A stretch of 64,000 bases of DNA from positions 101,122,001 through 101,186,000 of the forward strand of contig OZ024742.1 in assembly GCA_964016885.1 (NCBI GenBank), given 5' to 3'. The translations under genes were made by a program, and so were the position numbers. Below the pieces are notes generated by a model. The model had not been told where the DNA came from, did no database searches, and saw only the letters and a program-made list of their open reading frames with translations. This document shows, one piece after another, positions 3,606 to 58,956 of the stretch. This DNA is from Eledone cirrhosa (lineage: Eukaryota). Within the stretch, counting starts at the first letter, position 1. Every line of letters begins with the position of its first letter.

Positions 3606-3778
3606 TATAATAAACTTGATCCTCCTTTACAAAGATAAAACTGCAACTTGTTTCATCAGGCATTAGCTGAATATTAAATATAGTCAATAAGAACTATTGA
3701 CTATATTTAATATTCAGCTAATGCCTGATGAAACAAGTTGCAGTTTTATCTTTGTAAAGGAGGATCAAGTTTATTATA
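3606..3778. repeat. Perfect hairpin, 84-bp arms, 5-nt loop
   Basis: 3606-3689 is the reverse complement of 3695-3778; loop agaac. Confidence 0.92.
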
Positions 3779-18665: not shown

Positions 18666-19003
18666 TCATCATCATCATCATTTTACATCCGCTTTTCCCT
18701 GCTTGCAAGGGTGGGATGGGAACTGATTCTGGCTTGATTTCTACAGCTGGATGCCCTTCCTAACACTAACCTCATTTACAGTGAGTGATGGGTGCTTTTT
18801 TGCCGTGGCACCTCCACGACCACTTTGCAGTGGAATGATATGGACCCCATTTCTTATCATCTCATTTCTATAGCTGAGTAAACTGGAGCAATGTAAAATA
18901 AAGTGTCTTGCTCAAGGAAACAACACATGACCTGGTCTGAGATTTGAACTCACAACCTTTCGATTGCAAGGCCAATGCTCTAACCACTAAGCCATGTGCC
19001 TCC
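18666..19003 (-). mobile_element. tRNA-derived SINE, family B, with an RTE-derived 3' tail
   Basis: A box TGGCTTAGTGG, B box GAGTTCAAATC, central ccttgagcaagacactttatt domain, 3' part shared with the RTE 3' UTR, (GAT)n tail. Confidence 0.85.
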
Positions 19004-19114
19004 ATATATATATATATTTCTAAAATTTCTTCAGTCAAAAATATGACAAAAGCTTCTATTTCTACTAAATTTCAAACTTCGCTCACTTTTCAAAACAGAC
19101 TTACTTGTCATTAT

Positions 19115-20668
19115 ATCATCATCATCATCACCGTTTTACGTCCGTTCTTCCACGCTAGCATGGGTTAGACGGGTTGTCCTGTTGTGGGCAGTGTCTGGTC
19201 GGCTGACCATGCCTTGCTCATACAGGAACTGATCTGGCTTGATTTCTACAGCTGGATGCCCTTCCTAACACCAACCTCATTTACAGTGAGTGCTGGGTGC
19301 TTTTTCGTGGCGCCTACACGTCCACTTTACAGTGTGGGCTGGGTGCTTTTTTGCCGTGGCACCTCCACGGCCACCTTGCGGGGGGGGGGGGGGGGGGGGG
19401 CATATTGTTTATATGCTTCAGCATGTACCCATGGGAGGTCGGGTACCCTGTATTACTGCGTGACGCCAGAAGTCACGGTCGTGTGTCATTGACTTTGAGA
19501 GGTGTAGTTGGGTAAGGTCGGCTTTTATCACCTCATCCCAAGTCATCTTGGGTCTCCCCACTCCGCGGTTTCCATCAACTTCTAGTGCTCTGCACCTTTT
19601 TATGCAGCTGTCATCCTTCATACGCATCACATGTCCATACCAGCGTAACCGCCTCTCCTGCACGCAGCATTTGATTCCTCTTATGCTCAGTCTCTCTCTC
19701 AATTCCTTTATGCTTTGTCGTTCACGTATATTACTGTTACACATCCATCGAAGCATGCAGGCTTCGTTTCTCTCTAATCTACGTAAGTCTTCCACCTTCA
19801 GCGCCCAGGTCTCACTACCATGCAACATCGCTGTTCGGATACACGCATCATACAGTCTGCCTTTCATTCTGAGGGAGAAGCCTTTTGCAGCTAGCAGTGG
19901 TAGTAGTTCCCTAAACTTCTTCCATCCCGTTCTTACCCTAGTTATTGTACTTTCTGAGCACCCACCTCCGTTGCTAATTCGGTCACCTAGGTAGCAGAAG
20001 CTGTCTACTGTTTCTACAGGGCCCTCCCAGAGATTGGTGGTACTTGTTTCCTGTGGCTGTTTGCTTGCTGTTTCAGCACAGCTGCTGCATGTGAATCCTA
20101 CATTCTTAATTAAGCTTCCTGAGATCCCGCTACATCTCTTGTGTACCCATTGTTTGCATTTGGGGCAGAGAATGGAGTTCCTACCTACACCTTTCCTACA
20201 TACTGAGCAAGGCCATTTCCCTGAGGGGATCTGGGTTCTGTTTTCTCGTCTACTTATAAGGACCTTAGTCTTTGTCATGTTGACTTTGAGGCCCTTTCTC
20301 TCTAGTCCCTGCTTCCAGGTTTGGAATTTATTCTCTAGTTCTACCATAGATTCAGCTATGAGTGCGAGGTCATCAGCATACAGGAGTTCCCATGGGCATC
20401 CGGTCTTAAACTCCTCCGTTATTGCCTGCAGGACTATGATGAACAGGAGAGGGCTAAGAACAGAGCCCTGGTGGACCCCAACCTGTACGCTAAATTCCTC
20501 GCTATACTCATTGCCAATCCTAACTTTGCTGACTGCTCCCCTATACATGGCTTGTACCGCTTTCACAAGCCATTCATCTACTCCTAGTTTTCTAAGAGCC
20601 CACCAGATTACTGCACGTGGAACTCTGTCAAAGGCTTTCTCAAGGTCGACAAATGCCAAGTAGAGTGG

Positions 20669-20672
<4 letters not shown>
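19115..20672 (-). mobile_element. 5'-truncated copy of the same RTE LINE (3' part of ORF + 3' UTR), inserted next to (TA)n
   Basis: The 413-aa ORF 19418-20659 matches the C-terminal part of ORF 33584-35656; only scattered nucleotide differences were seen. (ATC)n tail at about 19115-19130; the 5' end abuts a (TA)n run. Confidence 0.95.
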
Positions 20673-20725
<53 letters not shown>

Positions 20726-20770
20726 ACAAGGGGAAAGAGACGATTATGAGGAAGAAAAATATATATATAT

Positions 20771-20852
20771 AATTTTAGCCTGATAGTGGGGTTTAGAACC
20801 CTATCCTTTTCCATTTTTAGAGGGTTCTAAACCCCACTATCAAGCTAAAATT
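20771..20852. repeat. Inverted repeat (about 32-bp arms) next to (TA)n
   Basis: aattttagcctgatagtggggtttagaaccct ... agggttctaaaccccactatcaagctaaaatt. Confidence 0.85.
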
Positions 20853-20894
20853 TCTTTAGTCAAAAATACAGCGAAAGCTATTTCTACTAAATAA

Positions 20895-20947
<53 letters not shown>

Positions 20948-21146
20948 AGATTGGCTGGCTAATTAATTATGTTAATTAGCTAATATTCATAATCATGGTG
21001 AAACCATGGTCAATATATAAAATGAACAAAAACCTAAAAAATAGAAATTAGAATTTTTCCGTTGAAATAAAAGCAACATGTGTAAATTATTCATAAATAA
21101 AAGCTCCATATTTATCTGGTATAGAAAGTGCACAAGTAAAGCTTAC

Positions 21147-21308
21147 CAGTTCCATCTTCATCAAAACAAGCAAATGCATTCTTTATCACATCCTCGGGAT
21201 CTGTTCCATTTAACTTATCTCCAAACATGGTAAGAAACAGAGTGAAATTGATGGGGCCCGTAGCATCATTGACCATATCATTCAAATAATTGTCATCGGG
21301 GTCTTTGC
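21147..21308 (-). CDS. Myosin regulatory light chain, second coding exon (162 nt, phase 1/1)
   Basis: Not in the ORF track. Manual translation gives (G)[53 protein letters not shown](G), the typical MRLC middle segment. Flanked by tttcag acceptor and gtaagc donor; in frame with the previous exon. Confidence 0.95.
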
Positions 21309-22162
21309 CTGAAAGAAATAAAAATGGGAATGAAATTAATGTTACAGCTTATTACTATGGAGGTTAAACTGGCCTCCCATGAGGTTACATCGCTTAGGAG
21401 GTTTATTGGGTGTTTTAATGATAGTCCTCTCATGAAAAGCAACATAAAATGAAGCATCATACTCAGGAACACAACATGCTACTCAGTCCAGGAATTGAAC
21501 CCATGATCTTATGACTGTGAGTTCAAAACTCTAAACACTAGGTCATATGCCTTCACAAATTATTCAAAGTTGTTGAAATAAGAAAAGTATCTACATTTAC
21601 CTTAGATTTTAATGAACAATTTTTTAACAAGCTTCAAGGTGATCTTTGTAGACAAAAATGTATAATCAAATGACCTGACCACAATATAACTGATTATCAT
21701 ACTGATTTTGTTAAAGTTAAAGTCTTTCTGAACCAAGAGGCTCATCAGACAGGAGCTTATCCCGGTTTCATGTGGTATTAAATGACAGCAGAATTAATTT
21801 TATCAGTAAAATGGCACTAGAACAACATGAAATGAAGTGCCTTGATCAAAGATACACTGCACCACCCAGTTCGTGAATTGAACTTACAACCTTAAACTCG
21901 AGGGAATATACATTAGAACATTGTAGGTAAGCACCCTAATTCATGGAACATATTTCATGATGTTTTTTTTTTTATAAGACCTATTTTCTAAATGTTAGGG
22001 TGCACCATTGAGAGAAGGAAGGGTAGTGCTATCCAGTGCCCCTAACCCACAAGGCACCAGGAGCTATACATTACAAAATGCTTATATTCAAATTAAAAGC
22101 TTCCACCATATTTTTATGTAAGAACCTTGAGTTAAGTTTTGTTACACACATCAGCTTAATAA

Positions 22163-22374
22163 TGATTTCTAGTGTAGGCACAAGGCCAGTCATTTAGGGG
22201 GAGGGAAAAATCGATTAAATCGACTCTAGTACGTTACTGGTGCTTTATTTTATTGACCCCGTAAGAAGGAAAGGCAAAGTTAACCTCGGCGGGATTTGAA
22301 CTCAGATCATAAAGGGCCGTAACTCTATGCTGCAAAGCATGACGTTCAACCCTCTACTGATACTGCCAATCCAC
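22163..22374 (-). mobile_element. SINE family A
   Basis: Reverse-complement match to 5333-5527. Confidence 0.8.
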
Positions 22375-25300
22375 AATAATGGAGAATTAAATGAATTTGC
22401 TAAACCTCTCCAAACATTTGATTTTCAAAATGAAAGGAAAGACAGACAATATATGATGCATATGCATGATGATTGTTGTGTAAAAAAGTGCCAGGAAATC
22501 CCAGTGGAAGGTAGTGGCAGTTGATGAAGACTAAGGAAGGCCTGTGTAGAGGTGATATGAGCTGAGGCTCACAGTGGAGATCGCAAAGGAATGCAATGAA
22601 TGGAGGGATGCTGTGCTAGAAAAGACCTGTCCAACCCATGCAAGTATGGAAAAGCAGCCATAAAATGGGGATGATGATGGCCAGAAAAGAGTTTTCAAAT
22701 TGCATGATGTGAGTTAACTTGTGAAACAGAAATGAAAATGTGAACCAGCTGCCAAGAAGTATGATGACCTAGTTCCTTGGGGCATGAGGTATTTTGTTAG
22801 TAAGTTCACTAAAATAAATAAGCCTTGACCTAAAGGTAGAAACTGAAATCAAACCACACAGCAATCAATCAGATCACTGATATTTATGTCAACTATTTTC
22901 AAAGGAATGTTTGCTCTGTGCCATCAGTAACTGATAGCAACTACAACAGCAACAATTATTGACTTTCAGCTCTGAACTAGGTTATATGATAGCAACAGCA
23001 ACAGGTCTAATGAAACTGAAGATGTTCCCCACCCAACAGTTCTCAATGGTGATGGAGAAGATACTGAATTGTTTTAGTAAGGGAGCCAAGCACATTAAGT
23101 CTGTACTGCTTATTACAAAATTTAATTAAAAATAAATAAAAAAATTTACAATTCATCTACACATATTTTAAAAAAGAAGAAAAAGGAAGGATGAAAGAAA
23201 AAGAAAAAAATAGCATAGGAAAAGAAGGTACCCACATAATCTACACCCCAGTCTGAGTGGTATATCTCAGCTGCGTTCTGCAGACAAAATGGTGAAAACA
23301 TTGCTGTGGAGAACAGACAGTGACACCTTCAGCACCAGCCTTTCTACCTCATAGAGCTCTTTCCTTAGGCAAGAGCTCTTCTTGATTTTGCAGAGGAAAA
23401 TGGCAGTTCAGGGACCAAGGACACCCAAGGTTACAAAAAAGGCAACCAGCATAAAAAGGAAACAGTTGATCAAGTCCTGGTATTTAGCTTATCTTTCTCT
23501 CCATAGAAAACTAAACTAAAAACAAATTACATGAGCAAGACATGGCCACCTGACATGCTTGGCCTCATAGCGTGACTAACCCATGCAAGTTTAGAAAACA
23601 ATGTTAAATGGTGTTGATGGTTCACCAGTCAAATAGGGTTGCCTCATGTTAAACAATAAATAAACTAAAAACAAAAATATTTTTGCATGCAAGTATACAT
23701 CTTCATTGTAAAACATCTCTTTAAACTGCATAACAGAGAAAAGAAAACTGAAATTATTCTAGATTTGAGAGAATAGTAATATAACTATTTTTTTTATTAT
23801 TTACTGTTGTATCAAACACAACAAAAGTTTTTATACATAAAATTATGACAGAAGATTTTAAGATAAATATAAACACTTTAAAATAAACATAGAACTAGGG
23901 GCAGGTTTTCGGTAGGTTAGAATCAACTGCATGTCAGATAGTAAACTGTGTCACAGACAGGATTTTTTCAAGAGCACTTGAAGTACTTGCCATGTAACTC
24001 TTTCAGGGTCATATTTTTCATGAAATAATATATTTTTTATGTAAACAAACAATGAACATAAGCGTAACCAAGAAATGCTATAAAATAGCTTATAAAATAT
24101 GGTGAAGTCTTTTTAACTATATAACTGAACAACAATTTTCAGATGTCAGCAGACAGCAACCATATGTAAACAATGTAAGTAGCTGAAAAATCAGACTTTG
24201 AAGTGTTGAGGATATAAAATTAATGTGAAGGATGATGTGTCTTTTAAGGATTTTCACCCTATTTTATAGCATCTATGTGCATGAGCATATTATCCTTTAC
24301 ATTAATTTTAATTTCTATGTATTTTGATACCAAACCACCAGAAACTACTCCGATTTTATTACAATCCTCCCCATATAAAAATATTAAGTAAAGTGGTTGG
24401 TGATAGAGAGGGCATCCAGCTACAGAAAACCTGCTTAACAAAGGGTAGAGAGGATCCTTCAGCTGTATCAAAGACATAAACACCTCTCTAATGCTGGAGT
24501 CAAATGCACAAGGTAGAGTATGGGATCATAAATGAGATGCAGGCCTCCAACCCATCTGAGAGGTCAAGTAGCACCATTTGAGTCTGTAAAGAACCATCGA
24601 ACCCTTACTATCAAGAAAATGAACATTAAATGATTATGATGATATTAAAAACCTTCAATTAAAATTTTTTCAAGAAATTTTCATTAATGTTCCAAAATTT
24701 AATTGAAATTCATAGTATATTTTATTAGAAATACAATAAGGAAAAATTTGAACTAGTGTTTGGTGCATAACTAAATGAAAAGTTCTATATAAAACTATCA
24801 TCATCATCATCGTAGTCCCCCACCTTTGAAGGGGATAATATACCATGAAAAATTAAAGAACATTTGAACTGAGGACAATGAGGTGCAGGTATTAAATGCA
24901 GCAGGACATCATTAAATTTGATGTACTTGGTCATCTTTAGCGCCATTTTTTTAAAACATGAGAAATAATCTTTTTAAATATATAAAAGTAGAAACATAAA
25001 AATTAAAGAAATCTCAAGATGTCTATTTAGGAAATAGGAAGTTTTGTAGGCGCGGCTGCTTCTTTTACTCCTCCTCCCCCACCTCATTCCAGCTGTAATT
25101 TCAGTTTTCAGCAAAAGCTACAGCTGCCACCACCATCACCCCCAGCTGTTTCTGATAAGAATCTGGAATTCTACAATTGTAGGACATGGAGCCCAACAGA
25201 GTGAAACAAAAATTTACACAATAATCAAAGACACTTGTAACTCTGTTATGGAGAAGGGAAGGAGGTTCAGGTGTTTAGTTGTGGTGTAGGGTGAGGCTTT

Positions 25301-25699
25301 CTCACCCACCAACCACTAAATACCTAAAATACATCTCACATTAATATCACTGGGATGTTGAACATGACATATGTATAGAGAAACAAATCATACCCTTATC
25401 ACAACACCATATACCCTTTCCTTTTGCATATCACCCCATTTTTTAAAAAACATTTTAAGGGAGGTAAACTGGCAGTATCAGTAGAGTGTTGGATTAAATG
25501 TCTTGATATTTGTTCCATCTCCCAGCACACAGAGAACAAATCCTGCCATGGTCAACTTTGACTTTCGTCCTTTCAAGGTCAATAAATAAAATACCAGTCC
25601 AAATTCTGCTCCACCTAAAATCAAAATGTTCACACACATTCACAACATACACATTTATATATAAAGAATAATTAATATAGTTAATATGAAGTATTGTGA

Positions 25700-25968
25700 G
25701 ATATGCAATAGATGACTAAGTTTCAGAAACCCAGTAAAATGCAGTAGAAATATATAAAGAGCAAAGGATGACGAGTAAAACAAAAAAAAGTAATGTTTTA
25801 CCCAGTATATTTCAACATGATATTTCAGAGCTATTACCCTCTTTTCAAATGTTGAAATATACTAGATAAAACATTACTTTGCTTTGTTTTATTTGTCATA
25901 TTTTGCCCTTTATATACTTCTACCGCATTGTATCGGCCTTTTGAAACTTATCAGTCATTTATTACATA
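25700..25968. repeat. Older, degenerate inverted repeat (about 118-bp arms)
   Basis: The arms pair (e.g. aagtaatgttttacccagtatatttcaacat / atgttgaaatatactagataaaacattactt); the outer ends carry a GAAAC-TTA-GTC hammerhead 3' half on the minus strand. Confidence 0.75.
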
Positions 25969-28029
25969 TATATTTACACACACACACACACATGCATGAT
26001 AGGCTTCTGCAGTTTCCATCTACAAAGTCATGTTAAAGGTATTGGTCAATTCGAGGCTATAGTAGAAGACATTTGCTCAAGGTGTCACACAATGAAACTA
26101 AATCGGATACGACACGGTTGCGAAGTGAACATTTTAACCAAATAGCCATGTATTTGCCTAATTTATATGCAGAAAAGTAACAATTTTAATAAAATCTGCA
26201 GCAGTTTCTATCGCTGACCTAAAAACCAGTGTAATATATATATATATATATTTTTTTATTATGAACAGGGAAGAGAGAACTATTTAAGTACTAATAGACA
26301 ACCACTCTAGTGCTGTTGGCACGATAAAACGTGTCTGGTCCACACTGTATGGTAGTGCTGGTGCTACAATAAAATGCATCCAGTCCACCCTGTAAAGTGG
26401 CATGCTAAAATGCACCCAGTACACAATGTAGAGTGGTTGGTGAAAGGAAGAGTATCCAGCTAAAAACACTTCTGTGTATGTGTGTGTGAGCATATAGAAA
26501 TAATTGTACCATGTACAACAATGGTTAAAAGTACTCAATACTAGACGTAAAGCAATAATGAAACAAATAAAGTAAAACACAGAATACATTCAAATATATT
26601 ATTTTACTACAGTTTCGTCGTCTGAATCATCAGCAATAGCACTGTTTTGAGGACATATAGCATAATGTAGTCCTAGAAATACTATTAAAAAAAGGCACAG
26701 GATGGAGTAATCACAGCTGGAGTCACTTTAGCCCTTTTCATACCAACACCACTGAAATCACTCTTAGTTCTATATTTATTTGTAAGGTTCATACTTATAC
26801 AACCTTACATTATAATTTTACGAAGGAAATTTGTGTCAAGTAATGTTCCAGATATCGGCTTGAAAAATTAGTTATTTTACTAAATTCTTCAAAATTATTT
26901 AATTTTTCTCAAAATTTACTACAACATACTGGCAGTGTATTTCCTTAAAAATATGGTAACAAAATGGTTATTCATTTGCACCACTAAGGCTAAACCAGAA
27001 CAACAGACCTAATATAATTTAGTAACAGTCACACAGTAACTAAACCAATTTCTGTTTATTTTATTTACTGACAAAATGTGTGAAAATAATTATCTTGGCC
27101 AAGATAAGTACTTTCACACAGTTTAAACCATTTTCCTTCCAACTCTTATTTAGTATTTTTAAAAAAAATGAAAATTAAACAATAACCTTGAGTAAGAATG
27201 ATTCACACAGACAGAAACAATGGGAACTGTTTCTTAAAATAATCAAATGAAACACATATTGTTACCAGTGTCACAGAACTTGGGGAAATTGGAATTCAAT
27301 TCATTTGTTTGAAATTTTACTTGTCATTTCACTAACACTTGTCACTCATCTATTTTTAAATTTATTTCTTTGAGATGGAAACCAATATTTTACTTACACT
27401 GATTCTATTTTACTATTGTCTATCTTGTATTGTCATAGTTTGGCAGAGTCATTAGAATATTGAATAGAGTGCTTTGTGGTATTTGTTCCAGCTCTCTGCA
27501 CACAAACTTCTAAACCCACCAAGGTCAATAAAAAGTACTTGCCTAGAACTAGGGCTGATCTTTCCTCTATACCTTTTTCTCAATTCCTCTCTACCACTCT
27601 CCTTTTCTGGAAGAAATAGGCTGTGTTCAGATTTATAGTGAGGGGATGAGCTCTACCAGGTTTTGAAAACAGTACTCAAGATGCCCCTACAACTCCACCT
27701 GGAGTTCCATGTCCATACATTTACATTGCTCTATTTCATAATTGTTTCTACTTTTGGCACAAGGCCAGCAATTCCCCAGTGCATTACTGGTAATACTTGC
27801 TGAAATGGCAGAAGCATTAGAGCTACAGATGAAATGCTTAGTCATTATTCTAACACCTTGTACCTTGAGCTCAAATCTTGCTGAGGTCAATTTTGCCCTT
27901 AATTTTTCCAAGGACCAATAAATAAATATGTGTAGACTACTGGATTGGCAGAGTCATCAGAATAGTAGATAGGATGCATCATAGTATTTATTCCAGCTGT
28001 TTCAGTTTGGAGTTCAAATTCTGCCATGG

Positions 28030-28447
28030 CTTACTAAACTTAGATGCAGAAGAGTTAATATGTTAGCACACAGTTAACTAAGTTAACTGTTGAACAGTTA
28101 ATAAGTTAGCACCCTGTTAACTAAGTTAGGTACAGATGAGTCAATAAGTTAGTACCTTGTTAACAAAATTAAGTGTAGAACAGTTAATAAGATAGCATCC
28201 TGTTAACTGAATTAGGTGTCGAACAGTTAATAAGTTAATTCTCTGTTAACTAAGTTAACTGTAGAATAGTTAATTCTATTAATTAAGTTAACTGGAAAAC
28301 AGCTAAGTTAACGCCCTATTAAGTTAGCTTCAGAACAGTTAATAAGTTCTGTTAACTAAGCTGTAGAACAGTTAATAGTAAGTTCCTATCAATTAACTAT
28401 TAGCTGTAGAACAGCTGTTAACACCCTTTCAACTAAGTTAGCTGCAG
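28030..28447. repeat. Degenerate ~40-bp minisatellite rich in GTTAAC/TAAGTTA
   Basis: gaacagttaataagttagcaccctgttaactaagtta variants are repeated. Confidence 0.75.
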
Positions 28448-28470
28448 ATTTTATTACCCATTATTATTTT

Positions 28471-29092
28471 CGGACGCCATGCTTTGACGCATAGAGTTTC
28501 GGCCCTTGCCATTCTGAGTTCAAATCCCGCCGAGGTTAACTTTGCTTTTCATCCTTACGGGGTCGATAAAATAAAGTACCAGTAATACACTGGGTAAGTG
28601 CTGGCCTTGTGCCTATATAAGAAACCATTATTTATTGGCAGTATCGGTAGAGGGTTGGTTGCCATGCTTTCTAGCATAGTTACGTCCCTTTACAGTCTGA
28701 GTTCAAATCCCGCCGAGGTTAACTTTGCCATTTATCCTTACGGGGTCGATAAAATAAAGTACCAGTAATACACTGGGTAAGTGCTGGCCTTGTGCCTAAA
28801 GTAGAAACAATTATTATTCAGACTGGGCGATGTGTTGTTTGCTTGAGCAAGGCACTTTATTTCACATTGCTCCAGTTTACTCAGCTGTAGAAATGAGATG
28901 ATAGGGACTGGGGTCCCTATCATTCCAGTGCAAAGTGGTCGTGGAGGTGCCACGGCAAAAAAGCGCCCAGCACTCACTGTAAATGAGGTTGGTGTTAGGA
29001 AGGGCATCCAGCTGTAGAAATCCAGCCAGAATCAGTTCCCGTCCCACCCTTGCAAGCAGGGAAAAGTGGACGTAAAATGAAATGAAATGATG
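28471..29092 (+). mobile_element. Tandem SINE cluster: two family A copies followed by a headless family B copy
   Basis: A-type units at about 28471-28635 and 28636-28818; B-type body and RTE-like tail at 28819-29092. Confidence 0.8.
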
Positions 29093-30962
29093 AATACCAT
29101 CCATCATGATGCTGTTTACTAAATGTCACCCAAGTGTTTCTGTTTCATATACATACCATTAAGGCATTTGTCATAATATTAGACAAAGTTAGAAAGGGCA
29201 ATAATGTAAGAACTTCAGAAATACACACATGGTGACATAACAGAACTTGGAATAATACTATATTTTGTGTTTCACTGGATTGGTGCTCCCCTCTTTGTGT
29301 CTCAATTCTCAAATGGATGCTTTAAATATGAAGTTGGTGATTGAATGGAGACAATGTAGGGTAGAGAGGACTCCTTAGTTTTGCCAAGTACCTGACAACC
29401 TCTCTAATGTTGGTGCACTATAAAGTGCTTGGTGACAGAAGAGCATCCAGCAGCAGAAACCATGCCAAAAATTGGAATGAATGAGTGAAACATGGTTCTC
29501 TGATCTGTCTAGGGGGCTAATATAACTCAATAAGAAGTGACTCAAACTGTGATGATTTTTCCAATCCATACCAGCACAGAACATCAGATGTGATGATGAT
29601 GATAATATATGTATATGGTTGAGGTGTGAGAAGAGGGAGAGAGAAAGGGGAAAAACAGGGTTGGTGTGGCCAGTTTATGTCTACTTAATGGAATTTAGAA
29701 TACCTAACAGAAATATCTTGAGAGAGGAGATAGGAGAAAGAGAGAAGGCTGGGATAATGAGGGAAGCAATGGGGAGAGGTTATGAGAGACAGAATGGGAA
29801 AGAGATATAAAGGAGAGAGAGGGTGATGGCAGGAGAAATGGGAAGGGTAAAGAGAGAGAAAGGAAAAGAGGGATGAAGAGATCTGAGTTGCTTCAAGATC
29901 TGCTTCTGTCAAAAAAGTATTTTGAGTTGATCAAATAAACATATCTTTGGTGACTGAGACAGAGAAGGAGGCAGCAGAGAGAAGGGGGGGGGGGGGGGGG
30001 CAAACCATGATGGAACTTGATGAAGTAAGAACTGGTGGTTGAGTTAGATATAAATATGTAGGCTGAGAAAACTAAGGATGGTGATTGAAGGAATTTCAAA
30101 CATTGGCATATGTAGGTAGGGGAATGTGGTGGGTAGTCCAGTATTTGTAATTCTAAGCGACAAGATATCAGTTCAATGTGAGGCCTCACCACTTCAAAGT
30201 GAGAATAAAAGTGAGTACAACTTAAAAGTGAGAATAGTGATTTCAAAATGATACTAACACAAAAAGATTTAACTATGATATTTTGAAAGCCTGACAGAGA
30301 GCATGAAATAACATTGTAACATCATTTGTAATACCAACAATGTGAACTTGTTTAGTTAATTATAAGTTTTTATCAACCAAATAATGAGGCAAAAAACTCA
30401 TTATGTGGTTATAATGTATTTTCCTTTTTTTTTTCCGGTTCATAGGAAAGGCACCCTACTGTAGAAATCTTGTCAAACAAGGAGTTGGGAGGACCTTTCA
30501 GTTGTATGAAAGACATGATAACCTCTCCTGTACACCCGGAAGAACGTATGATTGTATGTGAGATGCAGACCCCCACTCACAGCCTGTCTTGGAAGTCAGT
30601 ACTCACACTTTAGTATAGAATTGGTCTATGTAAACTTGTCCAACCTTGCGAGCAGGGAATGTGGATGTTAAATGATGATGATAAGTATACCAATGGCAGT
30701 ATTTCATGATCATAATCTATCTACTAACAGACACTTGTGTCTACTTTGACCATGTTTACTTGATGCTGTTTACCTAGGCACTACAGAAACACTGTTCAAA
30801 GAATAAGCAATTTAACTCTTAAATGATTAGGTGCTGCACTGTTCCTAAAAAAAAATGTTTGTTAAACAATCTTAGAAGCTGCACAGTCAATCAGATTTTA
30901 CCAATGCAATAATTCCATAGAAAAGTTATGATTATGATTTTAAAAAGAGTGGACACAGTGCA

Positions 30963-31186
30963 ACACCTGATCCAATAATCCATGAGCTTATAATCTTGAG
31001 CCCAACAACCTAACCACACACACCTGGTCCAAGAATCAACTTCATGAGCTTACAATCTTGAACTCAACAACCTAACCACACACACCTGGTCCAAGAATCA
31101 ACTTCATGAGCTTACAATCTTGAGCTCAACAACCTAACAACACACCTAGTCCAAGAATCAACTTCAGGAATTTACAATCCTAAGTT
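30963..31186 (-). repeat. About 60-bp tandem repeat (3-4 copies) derived from a SINE head
   Basis: cacctggtccaagaatcaacttcatgagcttacaatcttgagctcaacaacctaaccaca is repeated. Confidence 0.75.
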
Positions 31187-31231
31187 GATTCCAATTTTCA
31201 ATCCTAAGTTGATTTCCAATTTACAATCCTA

Positions 31232-32298
31232 AGTTGATTCCAATTTTTCCAGCCATCCATCTAATCTACGAAGGTATTTTAGCCTACATATTGTTGTTAA
31301 TATTATGATGTTCCCTGCTGTATTAGCGTTAAATTTTTCCTGCTGTATTAGCGATAAATTTTCGAGGGTTTCTCTTAGTAGTTTTTCATGACGTTATTAT
31401 TGTTAATTTTACTGATGTAGTATTAACTTGGATATTTACCATGCGGTATTCTAATCCTATTGTATCTCTCTCAGTTATTTACCATGCGATCCTCAGTTCC
31501 TACCCCCCCCCCCTCTCTATGCACTTCTTTAAGGCTTACTACCCTGTCTTTAACCTAATTCATTCAATCTGAAAATATTGAAGAGATAAGACACTTTCCC
31601 ATTCTTCTCTGCTAAAATGTATCACTAGAGTTGATTCCAATTTTTCCAGCCATCCATCTAATCTACGAAGGTATTTTAGCCTACATATTGTTGTTAATAT
31701 TATGATGTTCCCTGCTGTATTAGCGTTAAATTTTTCCTGCTGTATTAGCGATAAATTTTCGAGGGTTTCTCTTAGTAGTTTTTCATGACGTTATTATTGT
31801 TAATTTTACTGATGTAGTATTAACTTGGATATTTACCATGCGGTATTCTAATCCTATTGTATCTCTCTCAGTTATTTACCATGCGACCCTCAGTTCCTAC
31901 CCCCCCCCCCTCTCTATGCACTTCTTTAAGGCTTACTACCCTGTCTTTAACCTAATTCATTCAATCTGAAAATATTGAAGAGATAAGACACTTTCCCATT
32001 CTTCTCTGCTAAATTGTATCACTAGAGTTGATTCCAATTTTTCCAGCCATCCATCTAATCTACGAAGGTATTTTAGCCTACATATTGTTGTTAATATTAT
32101 GATGTTCCCTGCTGTATTAGCGTTAAATTTTCCCTGCTGTATTAGCGATAAATTTTCGAGGGTTTCTCTTAGTAGTTTTTCATGACGTTATTATTGTTAA
32201 TTTTACTGATGTAGTATTAACTTGGATATTTACCATGCGGTATTCTAATCCTATTGTATCTCTCTCAGTTATTTACCATGCGACCCTCAGTTCCTACC
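31232..32298 (+). repeat. 397-bp tandem repeat (about 2.7 near-identical copies) forming the RTE 5' region
   Basis: The unit start agttgattccaattttt recurs at 31232, 31629 and 32026. Confidence 0.93.
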
Positions 32299-32540
32299 TC
32301 ACAATTCCCCCCCCCCCACCCCCACACACCACCATAGTCTATTCGACCAATCAAATCTAGCATGCCATTTCCACTGCTGCTGCTGCTACTACCTGCCTAA
32401 CTAACTCTCTCCTCCTCTGGCGCATCCCAACACACCCTGCCATTACCCCACCACCACTGTTCTTCTAGCCCTCATATTTCCCACCGTTATGGATGGATGA
32501 GCTGGGAATACACGAGCAACTCTGAATCAATAGATGAAAT

Positions 32541-35500
32541 ATGAATCTGCGAGCTACCAAGCACCCACGTGAAGCGCCAACCCAGAGACGCTCCCCTACG
32601 AGTGTCGACAAATGCCCAAAACTCCGAGTTGGTACCATCAATGTAGGCTCAATGAAAGGAAGAGCAGGAGAAATCGTAGAAATGCTAGAGCGAAAGGAAG
32701 TTGATGTATGCTGTGTACAAGAGACTAGATGGAGAGGAGGGTCTGCTAGAGTCCTTGTAGGAAAAAGCCAGTGCTACAAATTTTTCTGGGTGGGAAATGA
32801 CGATGGGATGGGTGGTGTAGGTATACTATTAGCTGACAAGTGGGTAGATAAAGTAATCTCAGTGTACAGGGTAAATGCAAGAATCATTAAACTCAGACTA
32901 GTCCTGAATAAGACAATTACCACAATAATATCAGCTTACGCACCCCAATCGGGGCTGCCAGACGAACTTAAGGATAGGTTTTACGAGTCCCTAATACACA
33001 CTACTGCTCTAACAGACAACAAGGACTTCCTAATCATTGCAGGAGATTTTAACGGACACGTAGGTAAACACTGCGACGGCTTCAATAGAGTACATGGAGG
33101 CCATGGAGTTGGCACAAGGAATGAGGAAGGATTCAGACTTCTAGAATTCTGCGACGCCAATGACATGTCAATATGTAACACAAACTTTAAAAAACCCGAC
33201 AACCACCTGATCACCTATAGATCAGGGGAGCACTCTAGTCAGATTTTATCCTCATCAGAGGACGTGACAGATGGACGGTCGTAAACACAAAAGCCTTCCC
33301 TAGTGAGGAATGTACATCCCAACATAGCTTAGTTGTCAGTGACCTCACGGTCAGAACTAGACGAGCCCTGAAACAGAGGCCAACCTGGAGAAGAAAGATC
33401 TGGAAGCTGAAAGTCCCCTCAACCAGTAACAGATTTAAAGATATTTTACTCAACGCCTACGACAGTAAAGAAGAACAGATAGAGACATTTAACGTAGAAG
33501 AGAACTGGGAGTTCCTAAAAAATAACTTACTAGAGGCGACGGATGAGGTTTGTGGCTGGAGTAAGACCTCAAGCAGGAGGAGAGTGACTTGGTGGTGGAA
33601 CAATAAGATAGATGAAGCAGTCAAGGCCAAGAGACAGGCATGGAAAGAATGGAAGAACGGGGGGAGCAGGGTACATTACATAGAGACCAAGAGGGAAGCT
33701 AGGCGACAAGTATACTTAGCTAGGAGGGAAGCAGAGGATAGAAAATTCAAGCATGTTTTACAACGTGAGGACCAGAAACAGGAGGTATTCAAGATTGCGA
33801 GGCAGTGTGTCAGAGATAGTTGTGATGTCATTGGAGAGAAGTGTATCCGGAATGATAAAGGTGAGCTTGCCCTCACAAGTGCTGAGAAGAAAGATGCATG
33901 GAAGAGTCATTATGATAGATTACTAAATGAGGAGAATGCATGGGAAGAAGAGACCCTACCCCACGTAGACCCTATAGAGGGACCAGCAGTACAAGTCAGC
34001 GGCAGCGTAGTAAGTAAGGCAATCAGAGATATGAAGATAGGGAAGGCAACCGGTCCATCGGGTATAGCTGCCGAGATGCTGAAGGCATCTGGGTCTGTAG
34101 GTCACACTATAACCACACGTATCGTTAACCAGGTAATACTAGAGGGGGCCATACCAAAAGATTGGTGCAGTAGCATCATTGTCAACTGCTACAAAGGTAA
34201 AGGCGATGCACTAGATAGAGGAAACTATAGAGGTATAAAGTTGATGGACCAGGTCATGAAAGTAACAGAAAGAGTTATAGCACAGCTGATTAGGGACCGG
34301 GTGAATATAGACGAGATGCAATTTGGGTTTGTACCAGGGAAAGGCACCACTGATGCGCTCTTCCTTGTGAGGCAATTACAGGAAAAGTACCTAGCTAAAA
34401 GTAAGCCACTCTACTTGGCATTTGTCGACCTTGAGAAAGCCTTTGACAGAGTTCCACGTGCAGTAATCTGGTGGGCTCTTAGAAAACTAGGAGTAGATGA
34501 ATGGCTTGTGAAAGCGGTACAAGCCATGTATAGGGGAGCAGTCAGCAAAGTTAGGATTGGCAATGAGTATAGCGAGGAATTTAGCGTACAGGTTGGGGTC
34601 CACCAGGGCTCTGTTCTTAGCCCTCTCCTGTTCATCATAGTCCTGCAGGCAATAACGGAGGAGTTTAAGACCGGATGCCCATGGGAACTCCTGTATGCTG
34701 ATGACCTCGCACTCATAGCTGAATCTATGGTAGAACTAGAGAATAAATTCCAAACCTGGAAGCAGGGACTAGAGAGAAAGGGCCTCAAAGTCAACATGAC
34801 AAAGACTAAGGTCCTTATAAGTAGACGAGAAAACAGAACCCAGATCCCCTCAGGGAAATGGCCTTGCTCAGTATGTAGGAAAGGTGTAGGTAGGAACTCC
34901 ATTCTCTGCCCCAAATGCAAACAATGGGTACACAAGAGATGTAGCGGGATCTCAGGAAGCTTAATTAAGAATGTAGGATTCACATGCAGCAGCTGTGCTG
35001 AAACAGCAAGCAAACAGCCACAGGAAACAAGTACCACCAATCTCTGGGAGGGCCCTGTAGAAACAGTAGACAGCTTCTGCTACCTAGGTGACCGAATTAG
35101 CAACGGAGGTGGGTGCTCAGAAAGTACAATAACTAGGGTAAGAACAGGATGGAAGAAGTTTAGGGAACTACTACCACTGCTAGCTGCAAAAGGCTTCTCC
35201 CTCAGAATGAAAGGCAGACTGTATGATGCGTGTATCCGAACAGCGATGTTGCATGGTAGTGAGACCTGGGCGCTGAAGGTGGAAGACTTACGTAGATTAG
35301 AGAGAAACGAAGCCTGCATGCTCCGATGGATGTGTAACAGTAATATACGTGAACGACAAAGCATAAAGGAATTGAGAGAGAGACTGAGCATAAGAGGAAT
35401 CAAATGCTGCGTGCAGGAGAGGCGGTTACGCTGGTATGGACATGTGATGCGTATGAAGGATGACAGCTGCATAAAAAGGTGCAGAGCACTAGAAGTTGAT

Positions 35501-35656
35501 GGAAACCGCGGAGTGGGGAGACCCAAGATGACTTGGGATGAGGTGATAAAAGCCGACCTTACCCAACTACACCTCTCAAAGTCAATGACACACGACCGTG
35601 ACTTCTGGCGTCACGCAGTAATACAGGGTACCCGACCTCCCATGGGTACATGCTGA
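32541..35656 (+). pseudogene. RTE ORF (APE endonuclease + reverse transcriptase) with a single frameshift near 33244
   Basis: APE motifs (GTINVGSM, CVQETRW, SAYAPQ, AGDFNGH) in 32541-33244. The second frame is open from 33245 (FILIRGRDRW...QHSLVV) to 35656 with RT motifs NYRGIKLM, QFGFVPG, FVDLEKAFD, GVHQGSVLSP, YADD, FCYLG. The shift looks like loss of 4 nt from SQI(D)FIL. Confidence 0.92.
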
Positions 35657-35672
35657 AGCATATAAACAATAT

Positions 35673-36152
35673 GGAACTGATCTGGCTTGATTTCTACAGC
35701 TGGATGCCCTTCCTAACACCAACCTCATTTACAGTGAGTGCTGGGTGCTTTTTCGTGGCGCCTACACGTCCACTTTACAATGTGGGCTGGGTGCTTTTTT
35801 GCCGTGGCACCTCCACGACCACCTTGCGGGGGGGGGGGGGGGGGGCATATTGTTTATATGCTTCAGCATGTACCCATGGGAGGTCGGGTACCCTGTATTA
35901 CTGCGTGACTTCTGGCGTCACGCAGTAATACAGGGTACCCGACCTCCCATGGGTACATGCTGAAGCATATAAACAATATGCCCCCCCCCCCCCCCCCGCA
36001 AGGTGGTCGTAGAGGTGCCACGGCAAAAAAGCACCCAGCCCACACTGTAAAGTGGACGTGTAGGCGCCACGAAAAAGCACCCAGCACTCACTGTAAATGA
36101 GGTTGGTGTTAGGAAGGGCATCCAGCTGTAGAAATCAAGCCAGATCAGTTCC
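35673..36152. repeat. Inverted repeat with about 237-bp arms and a 7-nt spacer in the RTE 3' end
   Basis: 35673-35909 is the reverse complement of 35917-36152, with a few mismatches. Confidence 0.92.
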
Positions 36153-38879
36153 TGTATGAGCAAGGCATGGTCAGCCGACCAGACACTGCCCACAACAGGA
36201 CAACCCGTCTAACCCATGCTAGCGTGGAAGAACGGACGTAAAACGGTGATGATGATGATGATGATGATGAAGTTCAACAACCTAACCACATACACACACC
36301 TCACAGACATCCCCACTCTCAAAAATGCAATTACTGAGTAACCAATAACTTAATTCCTACAGAAATACAAATACCTTAAGCTTGGAAGAATTTAGTCAGA
36401 AAGTGTAGCTCAACAGATTTGTTTTATTTTTCTTGTTTTCGAAATAAAAACTATATTATCCAAAATGCCAAGAATATTCCCAAAGAGCGGCCAGTAAAAG
36501 TTATAGGATAGAAATAAAGTGATAAAAATAGAGGCATCAATCTCATAAAACATGGTGATATATAATCTGAGAGGATTAGAAGAACATGACAGAGGAATTA
36601 ATAAAATATTTCAAAAACATAATATATTTATTCATCAGCTATTTAAAACAGATTCAATCTTGTTTAACTAAAGTGGATCATTAATGTTGGTGAAGTTATG
36701 TTTTAACAGTAAAATTAGAAGGCTTTACAAAAATAAAAATGATGAGAATAAACAGTGAAAAAAAAATGTTCACATTTTTATGTTAGCTATACATTACTGT
36801 TTGGAATGTTTTTGAGATTTCAGACAATCTCTGTGAAAAGGTTTGACATTCAGCCAGTAACAACAAAAGGTAGGGAGGTTATGTCAATGACCTAACAACT
36901 TCCTTACTGCTGGTGGATATCAAGGTGGATTTTTATCTGAAGTTGTCCCTTCCATTACCCTTAAACAATGCACCCCAAAGCTAGTTCAATATCTTGCCTC
37001 AAAATCTCTTTTCCTATCTCTCTAGATATATTCTGATCTTTGGATACAAGCTCCAGTTGTCCAATTCTAAGACATTTGTGATTGCTGTGCATGTGTGGCC
37101 TCTATTCTTGATGCTGTTGATTCGCTGGTTGGAAATAGCTCAACCCATCCTGGGTGAACAGTGTCACAAGTTAAAAAAAAGAAAGAAAAGCAAAGTGCAC
37201 TGTCTCATAAGGGAGAGTTTTCTAACATATCACACTCACATCAAACACCTTAATGTCGATGGAGACAGCCATTTCTAACACCTTCAATTTTTCTCACTCC
37301 TTAAACCTTTAGCATTTAAACCAGCCATATCCAGCCAGAATTCTCTCACCTCTTTCTGTTCAAACCAGCCCCAACCGGCCCCTCATACTGATGTTAAGGT
37401 ATTGTTCTCAATAAATAATATTAAAATCTCGTAGATTTGATATTATGTGTGATAAATATGTGAGGTAAAGCCTTTACTGTGAAAATACCATACTTTATAT
37501 AGAGTAATGTAAATGCTAAAAGGCTAATGACTATACACATACACACTCAAAAGTAAATGGATTTATGTCAATTTCAACTGAGTTTTCTAGTTCGACCAAC
37601 AGTACTACCGACCAGGGACTGAGGTGTCACAGGGGATATACCCCCTCCAACACACACACCAAAACATTCCATAAAAAAATAATAGTGGAGTACAGAGTAA
37701 AAAATATTTCAGTATTTTAACACTTCTAATATACATATATATATATATATATTGAGTCCCAGGATTAGCTGGCTGAAGGGCGGAGGGATGGAGCACAATG
37801 CTAGAAACCATAACTCCATTAAATCAAAATTACTATGGAAACAACAAAAGTCACCCAATGCACCACAGGGAGCAACTGAAACTAAAAAAGGAGGAGGACG
37901 ATGCACACCAGTACTACTTTTGTAAAACCAGATCTACTGGGAACATTCTCCTATGTTACATTGTAACCTCTGTGCTGTCTTTTTGCCTTTTCTCCTGCTA
38001 CTACAGTATTCTAATACAACACAGCACTATGGCTGCATTACATTAAATATTAAAGTCTTTAGTTTACTGAAAATGTTTAAATACCTGTCCTCTAGTAAAG
38101 ATACTAGAAACATATGAATTAACAAATCTGTTTTTAGATATTTTCTACTAAATCATTACAAGAGGTAAGAGTTACGACCGATGAATAGATATTAGGGCTA
38201 TTAGATGAAGAGAAAACAAGGACCTTTGTAGAAATGATCGAAGAAACAGGAGGAAAATGTAGCTCAACAATTGGTCAGTCTAAACTTCATTTTCTTCAAT
38301 GGAAAATATATAGCGTTTTACTGATGAAACCACCATATTGAGTGCCTTTAGTGGAGTTCATTTTGTTGCAAGCACTTGGGCCAGTCTTGAGTCCCTGAAA
38401 AGAGCCATGGACATTGCCCTTCCTTTTCTCCCTGTGCTATACAAAACAAATATTGGGTTTTCTTTTTGCATCAAAACCCATCAATATATCTCACTTTATA
38501 TATCATGCCTGAATTGATTCAGGATTGACACAAATCATCATAAAAATATGAAAATTTGACTGCGAGTCAATGAATCAGAGCATAAGCTTGAGGTAACCAA
38601 AACAAATCACAGATCTATATTGTTTCACTGTAAGATTAAAGGCAGATGATGAATTAGCAGAGTCATTAGAGCATCCAATTAAATATTTTGGTATTTGTCC
38701 CAACCGTCTAAGCTTTGAGTTCAAATCCTTCCGAGGTCAAATTTGCCTTTTATCCTTTTCAAGTTGATAAAGTACCAATCCAGAGGCAGTGGTTTGCAGA
38801 ATCTTTAAAGGTGTCAGATGGGATGCATTGCAGTATATGTTCTGGATTAAAGTTCTGAGTTCAAATCCTGCCTCTTATC

Positions 38880-39471: not shown

Positions 39472-39655
39472 CTAAAGATGCTAGCATGTCATGGAGATCC
39501 TCTTTGTCAATTAGTCCATCTTTATTTTGATCTATCATATTGAAAGCTTCTTTGAATTCCTGAATTTGAGCTTGATCAAACATAGCAAAGACATTTGAAG
39601 TGGCCCGTTGTGCCCTCTTCTTTGTCGTCTTTCCTTTAGTTTTGCGGCTCGACAT
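39472..39655 (-). CDS. Non-muscle myosin II regulatory light chain (sqh/MYL9/MYL12-like), first coding exon
   Basis: Translates [61 protein letters not shown](G): the RATSNVF phosphorylation motif and EF-hand 1. Acceptor tctttcag lies 4 nt before the ATG (exon starts 39659, implying an upstream non-coding exon); phase-1 donor GTAAAA at 39471. Confidence 0.96.
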
Positions 39656-47157: not shown

Positions 47158-48272
47158 TCTATATTATAAAGCTGACGGCTCTATGTATGTAACAAACATT
47201 TCGCCAAATGGCTGGACCAAACAGCAAATTTGCACCATAGATGTAACTTTTTCCAGTAAAAAAGTGAGGGTATTTTTGTCTACTGAATTTTGTTAAAAGA
47301 TTAAAGACATTATTTAAATATTCACTTCTTTAAAATTTCAAATGTCAACACTTCCGTTTATACAACATTCCTCACTCTTTCTTAGTCTGTCTTTTTAGAT
47401 AGATACATAGCAATGACATTGTGCCCTTATATGTCTCTGTATGTCTGGCTGTCTGCATTAGATACATAGCTATGACGTCGCACAACATTCCTCTCTTTTT
47501 CTTAGTCTGTCTTTTTAGATAGATACATAGCTATAACGTCGCTGCCTTATAATATGTCTCTGTATGTCTGGCTGTCTGCATTAGATAACGTTTTTTGAAA
47601 TATTTACTTCTGCGTTCACAGATTGATTTTTTTAGTTTCAGAAGATCCCGTTAAGGGTGAAAGCAGCGATTCTTTGCTTAAACTTTAATCTGTTATTTTA
47701 ATATATATATTCGTGTACAGATATTTTTGCATACACAAAAACAAAATATAAACAAACCTATTTATTTCACGAAAGCATAAATGGCTTATCGTCATTGTTA
47801 CTGCTGATATGCCACCCAAAAAGTCCCAGCCTGGCCGCAAGATCAGATTTTCCAGAAGAAAAAATGTTACTAGAGCAAGAGAGTCTGATGATGATCATGA
47901 ACATCGCCTTCAGCAGATGAGAACTCCAGCGAGAGCAATTCGATCAGCCCAGTCTCAAGAGCAGTGCCAGTCTCGCCTTCAGCAACTGAGGTCCCATGCA
48001 GAAGTCAAGAGAACAACACAGATAGAACAAGCCAGATTGGAGCAGGTGAGTTCACAAGCTGATTGCATCCACATTGCATTACAGCATCAGTGTGCCATAC
48101 AGGTCCTTGCAAAACTGAGTCCGATTTTTAACTATTCAAACCCAGCATCAGAGCACGTTAACCCCCCTCACTCCCCCACCCTCGCTGACTTGAGAGGGAG
48201 TGTGGTATCTTTGCACTGGAGTGGAGATTCCTGAAAAGATAAAATGCTGGTATACCTAGCCGGGCCAGCTAG
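47158..48272 (+). mobile_element. Non-autonomous Helitron
   Basis: Sits between host A and T. Starts TCTATATTATAAAG and ends in a GC-rich hairpin-like segment plus CTAG. Carries ORF 47809-48234 whose N-terminus (MPPKK...RARESDDDHEHRLQQMR...QSQEQCQSRL) resembles the STPR-like repeats of RepHel proteins. Internal ~120-bp tandem duplication at 47362-47590. Confidence 0.75.
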
Positions 48273-57900: not shown

Positions 57901-58956
57901 GTATCATGTGCTACAGACGACGCAAGAGCAATGGTCGGCCAACATAAGGGTTTCGTCACTCTTCTGAAGAGAGAAAATCTATCTGTATTTGCTGTTCATT
58001 GTCATTCATCGACAACACTTGGCTGCGAAGAAACTCAGCAAGCCGCTGAGCAAGTCCTTGCAGGTGGCCATTGATGGCATCAATTTTATCAAATGGCATT
58101 CCCTCAATGAACGAATTTTCCGGCAACTGTGCCAAGATAATGACGAAGAATTCGTGAAGTTGCTCCTTCATAATGAAGTGAGGTGACTTTCAAAGGGCAA
58201 CTGCCTTACTCACTTCTTTGAACTGTTCGACTCTATCATTGAGTTTCTGCGAGGACGCAACACAGAACTGTACAAGAAAACCCTCGATGTGAGGTAAGAC
58301 TCCCCTACCTCATCGACATCTTCAACAAATGCAATAGCGTCATTTTGGCTTTGCAGGGGAAGAAGATCACCTTGCTTAAAGCAAGGAATGCTGTGAAAAC
58401 ATTCCTGGCCAAATTGAATGTCATCGAAAGGAATCTGTGTTGACGGGAATTCTATAATTTTCCTAGTGTCGCCAATGTTCAAAACATTGTAAGCGATGAC
58501 CAACTCCAAATTTATACCGCTCACCTCCGTGCGCTACAAGACAACATGAGAGAATGGTTTGTCGACCTTTTGCCGATGGACATGCCAATGTGGGTAGCAG
58601 ATTCCTTCATAGTTAATGTCGATGATTTGGACGTTAAATTTCAGGAAGAATTCATTGAACAAGCAGATGACATGATCAAAATTAGATTTCCCAAAATAGA
58701 TGAACCCCTTTTTGGGATGCAAGAGGAAATTCACTGTCAATTTCCACTCCTACAAGCAGAGGCTAAGAGATTTGCTCTGCCTTTTCCAATCTCATACTTA
58801 GTCGAGAGGAGGTTTAGTGCTGTTTCCAGACTGCACAGTAAGGCTCGCAATCGCTACAATGTAATTACACGTGGAGATCTCTGGCTACATCTTAGGAAAA
58901 TTCAGCCTCACGTCAAAGAGTTAGCTAGACTCCATGACGCTCAAGGGTCCCATTGA
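57900..58956 (+). pseudogene. Buster/ZBED8-like hAT transposase remnant (frameshifts and stops)
   Basis: Fragments CATDDARAMVG, IHRQHLAAK, LLLHNEVR*LSKG and FPISYLVERRFSAV (C-terminal dimerisation region). Confidence 0.85.

What the first reader, a model, noticed from the sequence alone, without database searches (positions are those of the whole stretch)
19115..36269. Near-identical inverted LINE pair brackets a symmetric 162-nt exon: built-in dsRNA, exon-skipping and circRNA substrate
Seen: a 1.55-kb truncated RTE copy (minus strand) ends about 475 nt from the donor of exon 21147-21308. The matching part of the full-length copy (plus strand, about 34401-36269) lies in the upstream intron. 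Both would be in the same MRLC pre-mRNA if the last exon lies left of 19115, and could form a ~1.5-kb near-perfect duplex looping out this exon. The exon is phase 1/1 and 54 codons long, so skipping keeps the frame. A back-spliced circle joins G|GC and has no in-frame stop, with internal AUGs, so it is an endless ORF. Established: inverted intronic repeats promote back-splicing and are ADAR substrates, and coleoid cephalopods edit RNA heavily. Inference: two recent insertions may have changed processing of a housekeeping cytoskeletal gene.
Basis: partly seen in the sequence, partly recalled or inferred. Interest (0 to 1): 0.75.

Follow-up and report, generated by a model that had tools for sequence, protein, structure and literature searches.

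The report
Chance inverted LINE pair around exon
Two near-identical copies of a very common young jumping gene sit in opposite directions on either side of one exon of an octopus myosin light-chain gene; they would be able to pair in the unspliced RNA and likely get edited, but the arrangement is likely a chance result of thousands of recent insertions, and no circular or exon-skipped RNA has been seen.

Summary
The pair is real and both copies lie inside the pre-mRNA of a four-coding-exon non-muscle myosin regulatory light chain gene: the next exon is 2.5 kb left of the window. Arms: 1272 nt (2 mismatches) and 282 nt (2 mismatches), 13.7 kb apart. The family is huge and young: 4,944 exact matches to a subfamily-diagnostic 39-mer, so about 69 inverted pairs within 17 kb are expected even at random. 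The two copies share no private change, so they look like independent insertions. Exon B was already flanked by 15 older inverted matches and has strong splice sites. The 'endless ORF' follows from any symmetric coding exon. No RNA run was available, so circularisation, skipping and editing are untested; published octopus data show few, low circRNAs, which the authors relate to ADAR antagonism. The scan reported the same pattern at another gene of this genome (e1-10355425). Ordinary; low interest.

The parts
19115..20672 (-). T: 5'-truncated young RTE-type LINE (RT C-terminal half, PHD finger, 3' UTR, (GAT)n tail); sense in the MRLC pre-mRNA; 5' junction abuts a (TA)n tract; no clear TSD
21147..21308 (-). 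MRLC exon B, 162 nt, phase 1/1, strong polypyrimidine acceptor and GTAAGC donor
31232..32298 (+). 2.7 tandem 397-bp units forming the 5' end of F; preceded by short slipped repeats at about 31171-31231
   Evidence: 13 of 18 other loci join the unit directly to the element body
32299..35673 (+). F body: 5' UTR and single APE-RT-PHD ORF (about 32541-35653), split by a frameshift near 33240-33280; 34402-35673 is the long pairing arm
35674..36155 (+). Private fold-back inverted duplication in the 3' UTR of F (turn at a natural 6-bp inverted repeat with 7-nt loop, 35904-35922); 235-bp hairpin, -515.5 kcal/mol
35981..36269 (+). 3' UTR end and (GAT)n tail of F; short pairing arm (35981-36262), 175 nt of which is contested by the local hairpin
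39472..39655 (-). MRLC exon A coding part (ATG, 184 nt, ends phase 1)
28818..29093 (.). Older repeat, 277 nt at 91% inverted to 18666-18940: best of 15 older reverse-complementary matches across exon B

Best explanation
Two copies of a young, very abundant RTE-type LINE lie head-to-head in the introns on either side of exon B of a myosin light-chain gene, likely as independent chance insertions; they would form a transient 1272-bp intronic duplex that is likely edited and degraded with the introns, with at most a trace of circular or exon-skipped RNA. Shown: both copies are in the pre-mRNA, the family has thousands of copies about 99.4% alike, and the two copies share no private change. Inferred: each arose by target-primed reverse transcription from the same source lineage; the local fold-back hairpin in F forms first and takes 175 nt of the short arm; the long arm pairs only if the 18-kb upstream intron is still unspliced when T is transcribed; ADAR editing would then weaken the duplex; normal A-B-C-D splicing dominates.
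For: 4,944 exact matches to a 39-mer with three subfamily-diagnostic sites, 0 for the reversed control. Uniform expectation 69 inverted pairs within 17 kb; 16 inverted and 23 direct pairs among the first 100 listed matches. 30 sampled copies have median 99.42% identity to T. 6 of 120 pairs among 16 near-complete copies differ by 2 or fewer changes, and unlinked L043 is 2 changes from each of T and F. The only 2 alleles of T absent from all 30 copies are not in F. 15 older inverted matches already span exon B, with 10 and 19 more inside the two introns. Strong splice sites. O. vulgaris: 296 filtered circRNAs, low levels, ADAR antagonism cited (PMC9699675). Mammalian circRNAs near young TEs are described as splicing by-products (PMC8516420).
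Against: The long arm is far longer and more perfect than any older match here (1272 nt at 99.8% against 277 nt at 91%), computed duplex energy -2674 kcal/mol, and one arm is only 475 nt from the donor. The pair is in the closest 5% of random young pairs (6 of 120). For any one exon with introns of this size the uniform chance of such a pair is only 0.0006. The 100 listed matches come from a dense stretch of one contig and are not a random sample. No RNA could be examined.
Confidence: 0.8

Rival explanations
1. The new duplex measurably changes processing: exon B is back-spliced or skipped at a clear rate on haplotypes with both insertions, giving a 162-nt circle and a 118-aa light chain lacking residues 62-115.
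For: Correct nested geometry and a 1272-bp near-perfect arm; frame-preserving exon and stop-free circle; young TE dimers and inverted L1 copies are associated with circRNA loci in mammals (PMC8516420, PMC8516421).
Against: Upstream arm 13.1 kb away; strong splice sites; circRNAs with distal inverted elements are classed as inverted-element-independent in PMC7819710; low circRNA levels in octopus; a 162-nt single exon is short for back-splicing (recalled, not from a call).
Confidence: 0.1
2. The two copies are related locally: one was made from the other by DNA duplication or local retrotransposition, or they were homogenised by gene conversion.
For: Only 2 differences in 1272 nt against a median of 8 for random young pairs; same segregating alleles at four sites.
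Against: No shared private change; that allele set is found in 6 of 16 near-complete copies elsewhere; T lacks F's fold-back and has its own tail and junctions.
Confidence: 0.06
3. One copy, or the fold-back in F, is an assembly artefact.
For: High-copy near-identical repeats beside (TA)n tracts and a palindrome are error-prone; the junctions could not be confirmed in reads.
Against: Each copy has its own substitutions, tail length and junctions; the two hairpin arms differ by 2 substitutions and one homopolymer base, which a library fold-back would not be expected to give.
Confidence: 0.04

Closest known systems
Exonic circRNAs flanked by reverse-complementary matches from young TEs (inverted Alu/L1 in primates, ID/B1 in rodents; PMC8516420, PMC8516421)
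   Same: Inverted copies of a young species-specific TE in the two introns flanking an internal exon; long flanking introns (18.2 and 23.6 kb).
   Different: RTE LINE in an octopod; 1.27-kb near-perfect arm, one side 13 kb distal; no circRNA shown.
[not shown]
   Same: Long introns and a distal inverted element.
   Different: That class is described as not depending on the inverted element, which weakens the causal role of this pair; no expression shown here.
Repeat-directed A-to-I editing in coleoid introns and UTRs (PMC9068888, PMC9699675)
   Same: Long intronic dsRNA from repeats is the expected substrate.
   Different: Editing at this locus is not shown, and reads cannot easily be assigned among thousands of copies.
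Active RTE LINEs of octopuses (RTE-2_OV; PMC9115989)
   Same: Single APE-RT ORF of similar size, microsatellite 3' end, recent activity; insertion polymorphism reported in O. bimaculoides.
   Different: This family has a PHD finger after the RT and 397-bp 5' tandem units; identity with RTE-2_OV was not tested, its sequence was not in hand.

Membership tests
RTE clade LINE | Single ORF of about 1,000-1,100 aa with APE and RT, no separate ORF1 | tested here: met
   APE and RT in one ORF split by a frameshift; the 120 listed of 442 relatives are single proteins of 921-1,119 aa with RT and often APE; feature as described in PMC5850137. No other ORF of 150 aa or more in 31232-32540.
RTE clade LINE | 3' end of short tandem repeats instead of poly(A) | tested here: met
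   (GAT)n tail on both copies.
RTE clade LINE | RT groups with reference RTE elements in a tree | not tested
   No labelled reference RTE sequence was returned; relatives are almost all unnamed.
RTE clade LINE | Target site duplication | tested here: inconclusive
   T sits in TA-rich sequence, F in a roughly 62-bp minisatellite; only 5-6 nt candidates.
RCM-driven exonic circRNA locus | Reverse-complementary matches in both flanking introns of the same pre-mRNA | tested here: met
RCM-driven exonic circRNA locus | Both matches proximal to the splice sites | tested here: not met
   475 nt downstream but 13.1 kb upstream.
RCM-driven exonic circRNA locus | Across-exon pairing stronger than within-intron pairing | tested here: met
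   1272-nt arm has no within-intron rival; 175 nt of the short arm is out-competed by the local hairpin (-515.5 against -390.7 kcal/mol).
RCM-driven exonic circRNA locus | Back-splice junction reads, RNase R resistance | not testable with these tools
   No RNA holder listed.
ADAR hyper-edited inverted repeat | A-to-G clusters in RNA against matched DNA | not testable with these tools
   No RNA holder listed.
Non-muscle myosin regulatory light chain (MYL9/MYL12/sqh type) | Best matches are non-muscle/smooth RLCs; intact 172-aa frame | tested here: met

The most novel reading that the evidence does not exclude
The insertions are young enough to segregate, and on haplotypes with both of them exon B is circularised or skipped in inverse proportion to ADAR activity. 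This locus and the dozens to hundreds like it in this genome would be a natural allele-specific experiment on how an ongoing LINE burst creates new circRNAs and how heavy cephalopod editing suppresses them.
Probability: 0.08. Interest if true: 0.5.

Novelty: new member of a known kind. Interest (0 to 1): 0.15.

Why it matters
On its own it matters little: it is one of many expected inverted pairs of a family with thousands of young copies. It would matter if RNA showed allele-specific back-splicing or skipping, because that would catch a circRNA at birth in an essential cytoskeletal gene and test directly whether ADAR suppresses it in cephalopods. The family-wide burst (about 4,900 diagnostic matches, about 99.4% identity) is the more useful fact.

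Tried and rejected
RNA evidence: the one run search (window 20960-22900, mostly intron) gave no RNA holder listed; this is no evidence on expression. Laying X5, X6, X4, X1 on 20950-21700: X5 and X4 had no cover on the exon; X1 had a 466-nt contig with 0 differences across the exon and both flanks, X6 a contig across exon and flanking intron with 15 differences, so both behave as DNA. Local origin or gene conversion: first suggested, where about 11 sites were private against 20 older copies, then rejected when 4,944 matches to three of those sites appeared. The DNA search scored only 40 of 729 candidates and under-reported young copies. Fold-back junction elsewhere: only the window itself matched all 69 nt among 40 scored of 91 candidates. 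ADAR scars in DNA: F's 7 private substitutions are 6 G>A and 1 C>T on the sense strand, none A>G (6 of 7, p=0.125). Literature: no paper with circMYL9/circMYL12 terms (0 hits); cephalopod plus circRNA gave 17 papers, 15 listed, none on this locus by title; 'myosin regulatory' was not found in the four supplement files searched for PMC9699675, and no table of its 296 circRNAs was seen. A search of earlier scan findings with the fold-back region gave nothing. An annotated exon-skipped 118-aa human MYL9 isoform is recalled only; one search did not bear on it.

Full report
Observation. The window holds one long near-perfect inverted repeat: 19401-20672 with 34402-35673 (1272 nt) and 19115-19396 with 35981-36262 (282 nt), 13,729 nt between the inner arms. 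Each arm has 2 mismatches. Pfam gives RT and a PHD finger for both copies and an endonuclease for the right copy. Both end in (GAT)n. I call the truncated copy T and the long copy F.

Host gene. Exon 21147-21308 matches non-muscle and smooth-muscle myosin regulatory light chains best and is 100% identical to an Octopus sinensis protein, so the genome is taken as an octopod; the species was not worked out. tblastn with that protein places the ATG exon at 39655-39472 and two more exons in the neighbouring stretch L001, about 2.5 and 5 kb left of the window. Exons of 184, 162, 68 and 105 nt give 172 aa, 170 identical to the homolog; skipping exon B gives 118 aa with no stop. The flanking introns are about 18.2 and 23.6 kb. 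So both copies lie in the pre-mRNA, F antisense upstream and T sense downstream, nested so as to loop out exon B. The circle is stop-free in one frame only. That is automatic for a symmetric coding exon, so it is not evidence.

F has a 307-nt insert in its 3' UTR: an inverted copy of its own 35904-36152, turning at a natural 6-bp inverted repeat with a 7-nt loop. It folds into a 235-bp hairpin of -515.5 kcal/mol (z -54.9, 0 of 100 shuffles), which beats the -390.7 kcal/mol that the contested 175 nt could gain with T. The free long-range arm is therefore 1272 nt, plus about 107. The fold-back junction matched in full only in the window among 40 scored candidates. F also begins further left than assumed: the 397-bp tandem unit at 31232-32298 has 218 matches in 35 scored candidates, often in arrays, and 13 of 18 other loci join it directly to the element body; the other 5 show no body match within the 1.5 kb of flank fetched. 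F's ORF is split over two frames near 33240-33280, so F is not an intact source.

Chance. A first DNA search returned mostly 88-97% copies (40 scored of 729 candidates), against 20 of which T and F shared about 11 private sites. A 39-mer spanning three of those sites has 4,944 exact matches (2,526 and 2,418 by strand; reversed control 0); four of them are in this window by sequence. The first 30 loci are a median 99.42% identical to T. Random placement gives 69 inverted pairs within 17 kb genome-wide; the first 100 listed matches, from a dense end of contig C1 and so not representative, hold 16 inverted and 23 direct pairs within 17 kb. For one given exon with these intron sizes the uniform chance is 0.0006, so the case is rare per exon but expected many times per genome. 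Among 16 near-complete sampled copies, 6 of 120 pairs differ by 2 or fewer changes (median 8), and L043 on another contig is 2 changes from each of T and F. T's only 2 alleles absent from all 30 copies are not in F. This favours two independent insertions from one source lineage over local copying or conversion.

Background pairing. Between the two introns there are 23 inverted matches of at least 50 nt and 80% identity; 15 involve neither copy (1,582 nt in all, best 277 nt at 91%), with 10 more inside the upstream and 19 inside the downstream intron. The new pair is much the strongest, but it did not create the first pairing potential across this exon. Exon B has a long pyrimidine acceptor and a GTAAGC donor.

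RNA and population data. No RNA holder was listed, and the contigs laid gave no RNA cover and no readable empty-site test. These blanks are not evidence either way.

Literature (passages read by term search, not whole texts). Gruhl et al. PMC8516420: circRNA loci associate with young species-specific TEs and are read as splicing by-products. PMC8516421: inverted L1 and AluJ enriched beside conserved primate circRNAs. PMC7819710: circRNAs with distal inverted Alus and long introns are treated as Alu-independent. PMC9068888: widespread coleoid editing is directed at repeats in UTRs and introns. PMC9699675: O. vulgaris circRNAs are at low levels, 296 after filtering, which the authors relate to ADAR melting intronic dsRNA (main text passages; supplement passages). 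PMC9115989 and PMC13282606: active and polymorphic RTE LINEs are known in octopuses. PMC5850137: RTE structural features. Heavy editing thus argues against, not for, abundant back-splicing.

Mechanism. Shown: anatomy, gene structure, copy number, absence of shared private changes. Inferred: two insertions by target-primed reverse transcription; the fold-back arose by template switching at the short inverted repeat and beside the C-run, during insertion or later in DNA; in the pre-mRNA the local hairpin forms at once, and the 1272-bp duplex forms only in the fraction of transcripts whose upstream intron is unspliced when T is made; both are likely ADAR substrates and are discarded with the introns; back-splicing and skipping stay at trace level. 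A skipped product would lose residues 62-115 of a 172-aa EF-hand protein and is unlikely to work (established knowledge of the fold, not tested).

Verdict. Real, ordinary and expected by chance in this genome; a new member of a known kind. The scan reached the same reading at another gene of this genome (e1-10355425; unreviewed, not used as support). Interest 0.15. The bolder reading, an allele-specific newborn circRNA under ADAR control, is not excluded (probability 0.08, interest 0.5).

Noticed in passing
window 35674-36155: Private forward-inverted-forward rearrangement in the 3' UTR of F, starting just before the C-run and turning at a natural 6-bp inverted repeat; gives a 235-bp hairpin in both the intron and any element transcript. 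A better local ADAR substrate than the long-range pair.
   Followed up: partly
window 31232-32298; e.g. L067-L084: 397-bp tandem units form the 5' end of this LINE family, in arrays of up to about 16 units elsewhere, reminiscent of mouse L1 monomers (recalled).
   Followed up: partly
genome-wide: Very recent LINE burst: 4,944 exact matches to a subfamily-diagnostic 39-mer, strongly clustered at the start of contig C1.
   Followed up: partly
window about 34865-34996 and the matching part of T: PHD finger after the RT domain; the same APE-RT-PHD layout is common among 442 relatives at E<=1e-100, so it is not special to this locus.
   Followed up: yes
window 32356-36011: 6 of 7 private substitutions in F are G>A on the element's sense strand, which is C>T on the non-template strand of MRLC; not significant (p=0.125).
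   Followed up: partly
window 20775-20855: Small palindrome (arms of about 30 nt) between two (TA)n tracts just right of T; its flank recurs at 19020-19075 and is a high-copy repeat.
   Followed up: no
window 30963-31231 and 36270-36300: F is inserted into a roughly 62-bp minisatellite, with short slipped repeats of about 27 nt at its 5' junction.
   Followed up: partly
G000:C1 9033985/9037072 and 9049086/9052173: Two inverted pairs of the young family with the same 3,087-nt spacing, 15 kb apart, suggesting a duplicated composite.
   Followed up: no
window 3606-3778, 867-996: Self-palindromes in the downstream intron (173 nt at 97%, 130 nt at 91%).
   Followed up: no
window 47752-48231 and 58444-58953 (+): Open stretches of 160 and 170 codons with no Pfam match; probably decayed transposon pieces, not tested.
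   Followed up: no
G000:C23:1600978-1601130: Second myosin light-chain-like exon, 69% identical to exon B.
   Followed up: no
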